A DNA stretch of 64,000 nt from Octopus vulgaris (lineage: Eukaryota), in assembly GCA_951406725.2 (NCBI GenBank), contig OX597835.1, forward strand, positions 40,610,001 to 40,674,000, read 5' to 3'. Positions 33,419 to 64,000 of this stretch are shown in pieces (positions within the stretch are counted from its first letter, which is position 1; the number at the start of each line of letters is the position of its first letter). The translations under genes and the position numbers were made by a program. The notes below the pieces were generated by a model. The model had not been told where the DNA came from. It did not search any database and saw nothing but the letters and a program-made list of their open reading frames with translations.

Positions 33419-33449
<31 letters not shown>

Positions 33450-33968
33450 CGACGGGCTTCTTTCAGTTTCCATCTACCAAATCAACTCACAAGGCTTTGG
33501 TCAGCCCGAGGCTATAGTAGAAGACACTTGCCCAAGGTGCCATGCAGTGGGACTGAACCCAGAACCATGTGGTTGGTAAGCAAGCTACTTACCACACAGC
33601 CTACATATATATATACATATATATATACGACGGGCTTCTTTCAGTTTCCATCTACCAAATCAACTCACAAGGCTTTGGTCAGCCCGAGGCTATAGTAGAA
33701 GACACTTGCCCAAGGTGCCATGCAGTGGGACTGAACCCAGAACCATGTGGTTGGTAAGCAAGCTACTTACCACACAGCCTACATATATATATACATACAT
33801 ATATATATACGACGGGCTTCTTTCAGTTTCCATCTACCAAATCAGCTCACAAGGCTTTGGTCAGCCCGAGGCTATAGTAGAAGACACTTGCCCAAGGTGC
33901 CATGCAGTGGGACTGAACCCAGAACCATGTGGTTGGTAAGCAAGCTACTTACCACACAGCCACTCCTA
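33215..33968 (-). mobile_element. SINE family B with triplicated head
   Basis: Three near-identical ~180 bp head units starting at 33451, 33629 and 33811. Confidence 0.85.
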
Positions 33969-49179: not shown

Positions 49180-49512
49180 TATGTATACATGCACACACAG
49201 AAACTCTCTTTTCTCACACACACTCAAGTAATTGTACAATGTACAGATAAACAACACTGATTACTAAAGTACTCAATGCAAAAGGCTGAGTGAGAGTGAA
49301 GCAAATAAAGAAGAAAGCTGAATAAATTCAGGAATACTGTGTGTGTGTGTATGTGTGTGTATGTGTGTGTGTGTGTGTGTGTGTTTGTGTGTGTGTTTGA
49401 GTGTGTGTGTGTGTGTATGTGTGAGTGTGAGTGTGAGTGTGTGTGTGTGAGTGTGTATGTGTGGGTGTGAAACAATTGATAAATTACTTAATAGATGTAA
49501 AAGAGTTATATT

Positions 49513-49818
49513 ATTGCAGCGTGGAAGGTGTTTGTAAGCCATTTAAGAAACACACAAAAACCGTTCGATTCACTTCAACATTTAAGTTTAATTTGTCAAA
49601 ATATTTTCGGCGCTTTAAGACCGCGACCTGTTCACTGACAAAAATCCGGTCTTAAAGCAACGAAAATATTTTGACAAATTAAACTTAAATGTTGAAGTGA
49701 ATCGAACGACTTTTGTGTGTTTCTTAAATGGCTTACAAACACCTTCCACGCTGCAATTGTTTTCATTTCAGCACACGATATCAGATCAAATCACTTGCTA
49801 TGCAAGTACATCTCCGTA
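49513..49818. mobile_element. Palindromic HHR-like element, family P1 (copy 1)
   Basis: Inverted arms spanning 49513-49757 plus a one-sided extension; homologous to 50891-51235. Confidence 0.7.
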
Positions 49819-49980
49819 GTTATATTATTGATGCCTTCAAAATCAAAGATTCACTCTGTTGCTACTCTGAGTTGTCGCACACCAATGCATCTCAATGAAA
49901 TACAGTTAAAAAAATAAATAAAGCTCAGAGCAGGGATGAAGTAAATCACCATGGATGAATATATATATATACACACACTT

Positions 49981-50345
49981 TTATATTTCGAGATGGTCAT
50001 TTTTTTCTTGCCAAATAAACACACCCATTATATATTTGTTCTTCACTTGTTTATTATTGTTGTTATTTTGTGTCCATTGTCTGGAAACCTTTCATCACAC
50101 ACCTGTGACCTCTTCAGCAACCTGGAAACATGTAGGATGGAAAGTCACTGAAGAGGTCACAGGTGTGTGGTGAAAAGTTTCCAGACAATGGACATAAAAA
50201 TAAGAACAATAATAAACAAGTGAAGAACAAATATATAGTGGGTGTGTTTATTTGGCAAGAAAAAAAATGACCATCACGAAATATAACAATATTTATTTCA
50301 ACACATGATTTCACATCAGGAATCCTGCAAAATAAATTCATAAAT
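49981..50345. mobile_element. Palindromic HHR-like element P2
   Basis: Arms 49981-50117 and 50148-50286; CTGAAGA-hairpin-GAAA on each arm. Confidence 0.65.
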
Positions 50346-50553
50346 GAATGTATGAGTGTGTGTGTGTGTGTGTGTGTGTTCTTTTCATGTTAAATTTCAA
50401 TAAAGACAATTTTACATTCATCTGTTGGGTTACTCCACACTTTTGTAGAATATAAATTTATTATTGTTAAACACGAATGTTGTTGAGAGTGACTTCAAAG
50501 TCCACTGTCAACAACATACTTGTTTAAGAATACTATATATACATACATTTATA

Positions 50554-50873
50554 TATCTGTAAATGTAATATGTGACAATTATTCGGTAGCCATGATAAAA
50601 CTCCGAGTTTCGGATGCCAGGGTAGAAATCCGTGCCGCCATCTCTTCAGTTATCCGGCAATTGGAAAAAATGCTATGATTTTTCATAGCATTTTTTTCCA
50701 ATGGCTGGATAACCAAAGAGATGGCGGTGTGGATTTCGACCCCGGCATCCAAAACTCGGAGTTTTATCATGGCTACCGAATAATTGTCACATATTACATT
50801 TACAGATAAATTCCTCTATTTACATAATATCGAGGTCTCTTTCTTTCTTTTGTCGTCTTACCATTTTTATCAA
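50554..50873. mobile_element. Palindromic HHR-like element P3
   Basis: Inverted repeat 50554-50808 centred near 50680. Confidence 0.7.
50594..50654 (-). ncRNA. Type I hammerhead ribozyme-like motif
   Basis: GAUAA CUGAAGA GAUG...CAUC C GAAAC UCGGA GUU UUAUC; helices I, II and III can all form. Confidence 0.6.
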
Positions 50874-50890
50874 TATATATATATATATAT

Positions 50891-51235
50891 AACAATTGCA
50901 GCGTGGAAGGTGTTTATAAGCCATTTAAGAAACACACAAAAGCTGTTAGATTCACTTCAACATTTAAATTTAATTTGTCAAAATATTTTCATCGCTTTCA
51001 GACCACAACCTGTTCACTGACAAAACTTCGTGCTGCATCTCAGTTTTGTCAGTGAACAGGTCGCGGTCTCAAAGCGCCGAAAATATTTTGACAAATTAAA
51101 TTTGAATATTGAGGTGGATCTAACGGTTCTTGTGTGTTACTTAAATGGCTTATAAACACCTTCCACGCTGCAATTGTTTTCGTTTCAGCACACGATCTCA
51201 GATCAAATCACTTGCTATGCAAGTACATCTCCGTA
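50891..51235. mobile_element. Palindromic HHR-like element, family P1 (copy 2)
   Basis: Inverted arms spanning 50891-51178 plus extension, flanked by (TA)n. Confidence 0.7.
51045..51095 (+). ncRNA. Minimal type I hammerhead-like motif with G3-C8 core
   Basis: UUUGUCA GUGAACA GGUCGC-loop-GCGCC GAAA AUAUUU UGACAAA. Confidence 0.55.
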
Positions 51236-62914: not shown

Positions 62915-63111
62915 TAGGTCCCGGGTTGAGTCGGGGTTAACCACAGTAAATAAGGTACTCAATACATAGCAGAGTAAATTAATTTATTTTATAGAAGGAG
63001 CTTTACAGGACTAGAACTGTTTCATTCAAATGAAATCATTAGGAAGCTTCCTGATGATTTCATTTGAATGAAACAGTTCTAGTCCTGTAGAACTCTTTCT
63101 ATAAAATAAAT
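62915..63111. mobile_element. Palindromic HHR-like element P5
   Basis: Near-perfect palindrome 62982-63111 centred on GGAAGCTTCC, flanked by (TA)n. Confidence 0.65.
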
Positions 63112-63161
<50 letters not shown>

Positions 63162-64000
63162 TACATACATACATACACATATATTCCTGAGCGTTATACT
63201 AATACATCTGTTTGTTTTCTACACCACCTGTCTTCGCCTTTTGTCTTTTTCGTGAATTCTCCCTATATATATGTATGTATATATATTTGGTCACACTGCC
63301 TTCATGAATTGCTGTGAGTCTGTTGCCATAAAATTCTATTAATTTGAATTGGGAGCTTGAGTCATAATGAAAGTTTCATATAAACACACACATATATATA
63401 CACATATATATATTGGATAATAAATCGTATGGTGTATCCTTGATAGCCTTCCGGTAAAGCAAGTTCAGCTTTGCAGTGTTCATTGGGTATTTTTGATTAA
63501 TGAGAGAGACGGAAGATGGAATAGAGAAGAACATTTATTGTAGAAACAATTGTAACGATCAATAAACATCCTTGTATCTTCCATCTCTCCCATTAATCAA
63601 ATACACACACACAGAAAGGAAGAGAGAGAGAAGGAGTGACACACACACAGACAAGCTATCTTATTACACATACATGTGTGTTTGTGTGTGTGTGTGTGTA
63701 CAAAAGCACTTCAGCATCCCATTATTGCACAATCTGCAGTTTGTGGCGGTCATATATCTTAGACATGACCAGTCGACATAATAACTTCACAATGGAACTC
63801 TCTGGATTTATCTTTGATCTGATACAAAGAGAAGAAACATAATTACGGTTGTTATACCACAACCACCACCACCACCACAATGAGCCAATGAAGAAATCTC
63901 TACATGACTGCTCTACCAGGTAGAAATAGCAACCAAATCCTCCTCAAATTACACCCCTGCCATCATTAAAAAAAAAAAAAAAAACCAAGAATTTTGATAA

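What the first reader, a model, noticed from the sequence alone, without database searches (positions are those of the whole stretch)
49513..51235. Cluster of four back-to-back asymmetric palindromes, each built from two outward-facing HHR-like units
Seen: four inverted repeats (49513-49757, 49981-50286, 50554-50808, 50891-51178) from three unrelated sequence families share one architecture. The centre lies just 5' of an HHR core, the arms are about 110-140 bp, one arm has a ~60 nt extension, and most abut (TA)n. In the first, the right-arm HHR is truncated. Established: Penelope-like elements carry HHRs in their pLTRs and often insert with an inverted partial pLTR. Inference: these are non-autonomous 'double-hammerhead hairpin' retroelements targeting TA microsatellites, with a local hotspot. 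They may be misannotated as MITEs or unknown repeats.
Basis: partly seen in the sequence, partly recalled or inferred. Interest (0 to 1): 0.72.

Follow-up and report, generated by a model that had tools for sequence, protein, structure and literature searches.

The report
Octopus Penelope retroelement hairpin stubs
The four hairpins are real: they are short mirror-image stumps, likely left when Penelope-like jumping genes inserted into AT-rich octopus DNA, a known by-product, and their only unusual trait is a swapped pair of core letters in one family's predicted hammerhead ribozyme, whose cutting is untested.

Summary
Observation confirmed: four palindromes from three unrelated families, plus a fifth at 62979-63114. 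The window is octopus DNA, probably an LPGAT1 intron.

Each palindrome is a head-to-head pair of truncated terminal repeats of a Penelope-like element (PLE), with a one-sided tail. Evidence:
- Minimal hammerhead motif: 4 hits versus 0.024 in shuffles.
- A 13-nt target duplication encloses the first palindrome and its tail.
- In family A (first and fourth palindromes), the arm end and tail encode 30 codons. These open an octopus protein whose relatives run into PLE reverse-transcriptase-like motifs (judged by eye, no Pfam hit).
- Contigs of three runs show very high repeat depth (order 10^4-10^5 over a single-copy flank) and many different centres.

So the hairpin is likely rebuilt at each insertion and is not a fixed 'double-hammerhead' element. 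The two motifs lie on opposite strands, and the hairpin is predicted to lock them off. This architecture is published (PMC3846280, PMC4209133, PMC8557442), and this scan noted it before in shark-like genomes. Possibly new: family A's G3-C8 core, which I found in print only as an engineered rescue mutant.

The parts
49504..49516 (+). left copy of the 13-nt target-site duplication of P1 (its last 4 nt overlap the arm end)
   Evidence: this 13-mer occurs only twice in the window
49513..49648 (-). P1 inverted, tail-less arm, family A; hammerhead motif 49642-49592 with G3-C8 core
49647..49757 (+). P1 tail-bearing arm, 5'-truncated inside helix II; joined to the left arm at a short (about 2-nt) overlap
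49758..49818 (+). P1 tail, 61 nt; the 30-codon ORF start runs 49728-49817
   Evidence: loose ends at 49818 in 105, 132 and 96 contigs
49818..49830 (+). right copy of the P1 target-site duplication
49981..50120 (-). P2 inverted arm, family B; hammerhead motif 50120-50081 (CUGAAGA core)
50148..50329 (+). P2 tail-bearing arm (core at 50148, 5' strand of helix I missing) and tail 50287 to about 50329; end uncertain
50554..50678 (-). P3 inverted arm, family C; hammerhead-like motif 50654-50594 with long helix II and a helix III like those listed for Hydra-clade PLEs
   Evidence: read by eye (missed by the descriptor); comparison
50683..50868 (+). P3 tail-bearing arm (core mutated) and tail of about 60 nt (50809-50868)
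50872..50890 (.). (TA)n run shared as the right flank of P3 and the left flank of P4
50891..51040 (-). P4 inverted arm, family A; hammerhead motif 51024-50974 (G3-C8 core); extends to the apparent 5' end of the family unit
51045..51095 (+). best-preserved family A minimal hammerhead motif: 7-bp helix I, GUGAACA core, extra G, helix II, GAAA, self-complementary 6-nt helix III; predicted cut after 51088
51145..51234 (+). first 30 codons of the inferred PLE ORF; short-arm end at ORF nt 34, tail end at nt 91
51179..51235 (+). P4 tail (57 nt), followed by (TA)n
62917..63114 (-). fifth palindrome P5 (family D, 62979-63114) with a 62-nt tail 62917-62978 and (TA)n on both sides; outside the finding

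Best explanation
These palindromes are likely dead insertion stumps of three Penelope-like retrotransposon families, each made of two truncated copies of the element's hammerhead-bearing end joined head to head, and likely built afresh at every insertion by the element's own enzyme. Proposed working, step by step. (1) The RT/endonuclease cuts AT-rich or (TA)n DNA with a stagger (inferred from the 13-nt duplication around P1 and the TA flanks, which are shown). (2) It starts cDNA at one of two fixed sites in the RNA just inside the ORF start. The two family A ends at ORF nt 34 and 91 are shown; that they are RT start sites is inferred from the in-vitro result for the anole element (PMC11167929). 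(3) Both cut strands are extended toward the RNA 5' end, or the first cDNA snaps back on itself (inferred; about 55% twin priming, 35% snap-back). The products join at variable points (variability shown). The result is two arms and one tail. The hammerhead is a passenger of the terminal repeat: it would need a same-strand partner to form helix III, and in the hairpin it is predicted to be locked off.
For: Motif beyond chance. A target duplication encloses arm plus tail of P1; 45 of 5000 random site pairs gave an abutting repeat of 12 nt or more, and none of these was of comparable complexity. ORF link: the 30-aa frame hit 1 protein among 1.84 billion representatives (P0008, E 2e-5). P0009 starts with the same 30 residues (29 of 30 identical) and continues in frame. 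P0010 and P0011 carry the continuation to the motifs TDKSG, LYGLRKDHK, RPVCG and SMDVVSLYPSID, in the order seen for PENELOPE, Poseidon and Neptune RTs in the Craig 2021 supplement. Family-level data: loose ends pile up at the tail end 49818 (3 of 3 contig runs) and the short-arm end 51179 (listed for 1 of 3). Left arms ending at 49645-49648 join right arms starting at 8 different places (51041, 51047, 51049, 51055, 49716, 49731, 49756, 49796), and 4 further joints truncate the left arm. Majority letters restore helix II (51077 C>A in about 98% of depth; 50170; 50619-50633). Arm:tail depth is 1.96, 1.37 and 1.97. The architecture is published: PMC3846280 (head-to-head inverted pLTR, tail, 8-10 bp TSD, pLTR plus tail coding the first 22 aa), PMC4209133 (dual min-HHRs 100-700 bp apart on opposite strands), PMC8557442 ((TA)n targets).
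Against: P0011 has no RT hit in Pfam, PHROGs or PDB sequences, and its model was useless (pLDDT 33). The RT call is therefore by eye, and no GIY-YIG domain was seen. The chain from window to RT runs through gene models from three Octopus species, not through one DNA contig. No ORF link was obtained for families B, C or D. Tails of about 60 nt are longer than the 30-40 nt described in print. No target duplication was found for P2. One family A joint (49645 to 51055) recurs in all three contig runs (depth 1220, 92 and 921 against single-copy 50, 42 and 2.9), so a small fixed-centre subfamily is possible. Only 15 of 475 joints and 20 of 3025 loose ends were shown. No contig spans this locus, and the P1-P2 spacer bin (49878-49945) had zero depth in all three runs.
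Confidence: 0.85

Rival explanations
1. Family A is amplified mainly from a short, defined non-autonomous RNA of about 200 nt (5' end about 15 nt before helix I, 3' end at codon 30), mobilised in trans by the PLE enzyme. The hairpin is still rebuilt at insertion. This differs from the best explanation only in the template.
For: In 105, 92 and 41 contigs the family sequence stops about 15 nt upstream of helix I and gives way to heterogeneous AT-rich letters (loose end 51044). Hammerhead bins hold 40-65% of the depth of distal-arm bins in family A, against about 10% in family C. Repeat depth is very high.
Against: The same 5' end would arise if RT primes on the 5' copy of its start site in a full-length mRNA and runs off at the transcription start. 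Family C continues at least 30 nt upstream of P3's centre (loose end 50678). No RNA data were obtained.
Confidence: 0.35
2. One reading: fixed 'double-hammerhead hairpin' elements that move as a unit, processed by their two ribozymes (retrozyme-like).
For: Four families share one architecture. One recurrent joint appears in three runs.
Against: Many different centres; P1 and P4 differ in their centres. The motifs are on opposite strands. Helix I probability is 0.0 in the whole hairpin on both strands. Element ends do not coincide with the predicted cut site (51088). Retrozymes are head-to-tail tandems (PMC7229834).
Confidence: 0.06
3. Fold-back DNA transposons or MITEs with long terminal inverted repeats.
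For: Long inverted arms and TA flanks resemble Tc1/mariner-type MITEs (resemblance from general knowledge).
Against: The duplication of P1 is 13 nt and includes the one-sided tail. Centres vary. The arm end and tail encode a PLE-like ORF start. Hammerhead motifs are present.
Confidence: 0.03
4. Sequencing or assembly fold-back artefacts.
For: No contig of the three runs spans this locus, and the P1-P2 spacer had zero depth.
Against: Arms differ by 4-10%, mostly transitions. P1 has a target duplication. The same families and head-to-head joints occur in contigs of three runs from different studies.
Confidence: 0.02

Closest known systems
Insertion unit of endonuclease-bearing PLEs with inverted pLTR and tail (Arkhipova et al. 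2013, PMC3846280; Craig et al. 2021, PMC8557442)
   Same: Head-to-head inverted truncated repeat, one-sided tail, target duplication around the whole insert, terminal repeat plus tail coding the first residues of the ORF, AT/(TA)n targets.
   Different: No internal ORF body: the insert is only the two ends (about 200-350 bp). The tail is about 60 nt, not 30-40. Repeat depth is of order 10^4-10^5, against a few copies in the rotifer.
Minimal hammerheads (min-HHR) of metazoan PLEs (Cervera & de la Pena 2014, PMC4209133)
   Same: [quoted passage not shown]
   Different: The family A core is G3-C8. That paper and Perreault 2011 (PMC3088659) report only U3-A8 as a natural covariation in the parts I saw. 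The extra nucleotide is G (their consensus H; Hydra-1_oBim also has G).
Poseidon element of Anolis carolinensis, PAc (Frangieh et al. 2024, PMC11167929)
   Same: Hammerhead next to the ORF start; two 3' ends inside the ORF start bounding the tail; AT-rich targets.
   Different: In PAc the ORF starts inside the hammerhead, and RT starts are reported at 111-118 nt. Here the ATG is 56 nt after the predicted cut and the ends are at nt 34 and 91. C3G/G8C is an engineered partial-rescue mutant there and the natural state here.
Hydra-clade PLEs (PMC8557442)
   Same: The hammerheads of families C and D resemble the tabulated Hydra ones (actc-g-gagt helix III; ctgatgat...tgaa acag-tt-ctgt). (TA)n targets; an Octopus member is listed.
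   Different: None of five short probes from families A-C matched the supplement's sequences. The family A protein looks more like Penelope/Poseidon/Neptune rows than Hydra rows. Clade not established.
Metazoan non-LTR retrozymes (PMC7229834; bioRxiv 10.64898/2026.07.22.740005)
   Same: Short, non-coding, type I hammerhead, PLE-related.
   Different: Retrozymes are head-to-tail tandems with same-strand hammerheads that release circular RNAs. These units are head-to-head.

Membership tests
EN+ Penelope-like element (truncated insertion) | type I minimal hammerhead in the terminal repeat | tested here: met
   4 hits vs 0.024 in shuffles; 4 of 8 arms pass, one more by eye; majority letters restore helix II
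EN+ Penelope-like element (truncated insertion) | inverted, variably 5'-truncated terminal repeat joined head to head | tested here: met
   variable joints
EN+ Penelope-like element (truncated insertion) | one-sided 3' tail with fixed ends | tested here: met
   5 of 5 palindromes have a tail; loose ends at 49818 and 51179; length about 60 nt rather than 30-40
EN+ Penelope-like element (truncated insertion) | target-site duplication around the whole insert | tested here: met
   P1 13 nt; P3, P4 and P5 unreadable inside (TA)n; none found for P2, so 1 of 2 readable cases
EN+ Penelope-like element (truncated insertion) | terminal repeat plus tail encode the ORF N-terminus | tested here: met
   family A only; not obtained for B, C or D
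EN+ Penelope-like element (truncated insertion) | partner ORF encodes a PLE-type reverse transcriptase | tested here: inconclusive
   motifs in the expected order by eye; no profile hit; P0011 ends after the first catalytic motif
EN+ Penelope-like element (truncated insertion) | C-terminal GIY-YIG endonuclease | not testable with these tools
   no genome held; the recovered proteins are fragments
Non-LTR retrozyme | head-to-tail tandem units with same-strand hammerheads | tested here: not met
   all five units are head-to-head; one search lists no tandem array over the palindrome arms
Non-LTR retrozyme | expression as linear or circular RNA released by self-cleavage | not testable with these tools
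   no RNA run on record held the stretch
MITE / fold-back DNA transposon | inverted repeats form both termini, directly flanked by a short TSD | tested here: not met
   the P1 duplication flanks the tail end, 61 nt beyond the arm
MITE / fold-back DNA transposon | uniform length and centre among copies | tested here: not met
Hydra-clade PLE (families C, D) | RWK/DKT RT motifs and Hydra-type endonuclease | not tested
   no protein recovered for C or D; only hammerhead resemblance
Active hammerhead ribozyme | self-cleavage at the predicted site | not testable with these tools
   needs an in-vitro assay; locked off in whole-hairpin folding

The most novel reading that the evidence does not exclude
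Family A is a PLE-derived unit of about 200 nt, at 10^4-10^5 copies. Its hammerhead naturally carries the swapped G3-C8 catalytic pair and still cuts as a dimer. Its sharp 5' end and two fixed 3' ends mark a dedicated short template copied by twin priming on both target strands. The octopus genome would then hold tens of thousands of natural read-outs of the unsolved PLE insertion reaction, and a new natural hammerhead core variant.
Probability: 0.3. Interest if true: 0.5.

Novelty: new member of a known kind. Interest (0 to 1): 0.23.

Why it matters
It is an ordinary product of a known retrotransposon class, so its importance is modest. Three points remain useful. (1) PLE insertion chemistry is unresolved. 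A very abundant family with two fixed 3' ends inside the ORF start and variable centres allows twin priming and snap-back to be compared by counting junctions. (2) A natural G3-C8 hammerhead core, if active, extends known natural core variation. (3) Such stubs place 110-140-bp near-perfect hairpins in introns. These would be double-stranded RNA in pre-mRNA, potentially relevant to RNA editing in cephalopods (background knowledge, untested here) and to repeat annotation.

Tried and rejected
- Rfam at gathering threshold: 0 hits in the window; minimal hammerheads fall below it.
- Own genome not held, so no genome-wide BLAST was possible.
- No RNA holder listed; this says nothing about expression.
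- Raw-read run X22 laid only 5 reads and was uninformative. I laid 4 of the 24 listed runs.
- DNA patterns in metagenome and viral contigs: 0 matches. P0010 and P0011 relatives in viral, metagenome and phage collections: none.
- No PLE ORF among 38 frames scanned with Pfam (37 of the 69 listed long frames, low-complexity ones left out, plus one tail frame); the only hit above a curated cut-off was an acyltransferase exon.
- A second open frame across the P1 arm and tail (56 aa): no homologue.
- AlphaFold of P0011 without an alignment: pLDDT 33, so no fold search was run.
- The Atlas gave DUF8422 clusters in rotifers for P0010 (score 0.97, family on 16-41% of members), a lead only.
- My first TSD control was loose and gave 28 of 1000 hits of 13 nt or more; the strict abutting control is.
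- My first hammerhead scan was too strict (2 hits).
- A first guess that family A's partner is Hydra-clade was dropped after seeing the Hydra alignment rows.
- Two papers that may bear on natural G3-C8 cores (Arkhipova 2017 on Terminons; Lunse 2017 on PLE hammerhead dimers) are not held.

Full report
SETTING. The window is microsatellite-rich animal DNA. An exon at 31480-31091 encodes a protein 100% identical over 94% of the query to an Octopus vulgaris LPGAT1-like acyltransferase. Three more exons lie on the minus strand between 36354 and 41792. Residues 1-83 are not in the window, so the cluster probably lies in an intron of more than 22 kb (inference). No genome was held.

OBSERVATION. Arms are 90.5-96.4% identical, and 28 of 38 substitutions over five palindromes are transitions, as expected for mutation after insertion and not for a read fold-back. 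P1 and P4 are one family (A); P2 (B) and P3 (C) are unrelated to it and to each other. A fifth palindrome (P5, family D, 62979-63114) has the same build. All five have a one-sided tail. Four of five falling within 408 nt of target DNA has probability 4.5e-6 under uniform placement, but the window was chosen after the fact. P3 and P4 share one (TA)n run, and a review states that PLEs tend to insert into or next to earlier PLE copies (PMC6765202, passages).

HAMMERHEAD MOTIFS. A type I minimal-hammerhead descriptor built after Cervera & de la Pena 2014 (PMC4209133, parts 1-2 of 4 and a supplement search) gave 4 hits in the cluster, against 0.024 per shuffle. Four of eight arms pass. P3 left passes by eye with a bulge in helix II; the other three are truncated or mutated. 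Family A has a 7-bp helix I, the core GUGAACA, an extra G, helix II, GAAA and a self-complementary 6-nt helix III. The core is the usual CUGANGA with C3 and G8 swapped together, present in all 3 complete arms from 2 separate insertions. Majority letters from contigs restore helix II in families A, B and C (40 of 199 differences shown). The hammerheads of C and D resemble those tabulated for Hydra-clade PLEs (PMC8557442, supplement part 2); that table has no G3-C8 core. In print I found natural U3-A8 covariation (PMC3088659, passages; PMC4209133) and G3-C8 only as an engineered partial rescue (PMC11167929, parts 1-2 of 4; PMC8495972, one passage). Two relevant papers were not held, and supplements I could not see may list such a core.

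CAN THE TWO MOTIFS WORK AS A PAIR? No. They lie on opposite strands, so one RNA carries one motif and its complement. For P4, helix I pairs have probability 0.85-0.99 in the single right arm (0.11-0.16 in the single left arm) and 0.0 in the whole hairpin on either strand. The element ends do not match the predicted cut site.

INSERTION SIGNATURE. P1 is enclosed, tail included, by a 13-nt direct repeat that occurs nowhere else in the window. Of 5000 random site pairs, 45 gave an abutting repeat of 12 nt or more and none was of comparable complexity; a looser first control gave 28 of 1000. P3, P4 and P5 sit in (TA)n, where a duplication cannot be read; P2 shows none.

LINK TO A CODING ELEMENT. 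The end of the family A arm and its tail hold a 30-codon frame starting at ATG 51145. It hit one of 1.84 billion representatives, an O. bimaculoides protein (P0008). That led to P0009 (O. sinensis), whose first 30 residues are 29/30 identical and continue in frame (its C-terminal part is a methyltransferase, probably a fused gene model), and to P0010 and P0011 (O. vulgaris), which carry the continuation. P0011 shows TDKSG, LYGLRKDHK, RPVCG and SMDVVSLYPSID in the order of the PENELOPE, Poseidon and Neptune RT rows in the Craig 2021 supplement. This is a by-eye match: Pfam, PHROGs and PDB searches gave no RT hit, and no endonuclease was seen. It matches Arkhipova 2013, where terminal repeat plus tail encode the first 22 residues (PMC3846280, part 1 of 5 and passages). 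An O. vulgaris annotation lists 190 Penelope-like families on 6.83% of the genome, 31 of them recently active (PMC13282606, parts 1-2 of 3 and a supplement search).

FAMILY-LEVEL EVIDENCE (4 of 24 listed runs laid; raw run X22 gave 5 reads and is set aside). In contigs of X2, X4 and X6, family A tail depth is 4.6e4, 7.4e4 and 1.3e5 times that of the single-copy right flank. The tool warns that this is no copy number, so only the order of magnitude is used. Loose ends collect at the tail end (49818; 105, 132 and 96 contigs), at the short-arm end (51179; listed for X6, 27 contigs) and about 15 nt upstream of helix I (51044; 105, 92 and 41 contigs). Centres vary: left arms ending at 49645-49648 join right arms starting at eight different places, and four other joints truncate the left arm (15 of 475 joints and 12 of 335 insert rows shown). 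Arm:tail depth is 1.4-2.0. Against my reading: one joint (49645 to 51055) recurs in all three runs, though at under 1% of family depth; no contig spans the locus; and the P1-P2 spacer bin had zero depth.

MECHANISM. Shown: two fixed 3' ends at ORF nt 34 and 91, variable centres, one TSD, TA flanks. Established for the anole element in vitro: cleavage of AT-rich DNA, extension of both strands, two internal RT start sites bounding the tail, and hammerhead cleavage not required (PMC11167929). Inferred: the enzyme primes on both target strands, one from each start site, and the two cDNAs join at short overlaps (twin priming, about 55%). Alternatively the first cDNA snaps back (about 35%), as Arkhipova 2013 proposed and as the symmetric centres of P3 and P5 suggest. 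The sharp 5' end of family A could be the transcription start of a full-length mRNA primed at its 5' start site, or a dedicated short RNA; I could not separate these.

VERDICT. Works like, and by most testable features is, the truncated head-to-head insertion of an endonuclease-bearing PLE; it is neither a retrozyme (PMC7229834, passages; bioRxiv 10.64898/2026.07.22.740005, part 1 of 5) nor a MITE. Earlier notes of this scan reached the same reading on shark-like DNA, and two noted G3-C8 cores behind other PLE-like RT genes. These are unchecked AI notes, and my reading was recorded before I saw them. A search for octopus, Penelope and hammerhead found no paper describing these families. New member of a known kind; interest 0.23.

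Noticed in passing
window:62917-63114: Fifth hammerhead-centred palindrome (family D) with a 62-nt tail, (TA)n on both sides, a perfectly symmetric centre and a Hydra-like motif.
   Followed up: partly
window:49610 and 51077: P1 left and P4 right share an allele held by about 2% of family depth, while three other variants are shared by the two arms within each copy. Conversion between neighbours or two templates per insertion; unexplained.
   Followed up: partly
window:50118-50147: The two arms of P2 differ completely upstream of the core. Several contigs match the right arm from 50141 onward only, so family B may have two upstream versions.
   Followed up: no
joint 49644 to 50969: One X2 contig (depth 431) joins two family A hammerhead segments head to tail on the same strand, an arrangement that could form a dimer.
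   Followed up: no
window:50389-50545: Another repeat between P2 and P3 (depth over 5000 in X2 and X4) with a small hairpin at about 50478-50516; identity unknown.
   Followed up: no
window:31091-41792 (minus strand): Four exons of an LPGAT1-like acyltransferase gene; the first coding exon is not in the window.
   Followed up: yes
window:48699-49100 and 33433-33961: SINE-like repeat split by a microsatellite (label recalled, not tested), and a 178-nt unit of related-looking sequence in about three tandem copies.
   Followed up: no
window:16938-17109 and 63484-63609: Two degraded palindromes (78% and 70% identity) next to TA-rich DNA, possibly older stubs of the same kind; no descriptor hit.
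   Followed up: no
window:63156-63250: Short pyrimidine-rich segment between (TA)n runs that resembles the P3 tail in composition; possibly a tail-only stub.
   Followed up: no
P0009 (XP_029654200.2): Public gene model that seems to fuse the element's ORF start to a methyltransferase domain, probably a prediction artefact.
   Followed up: no
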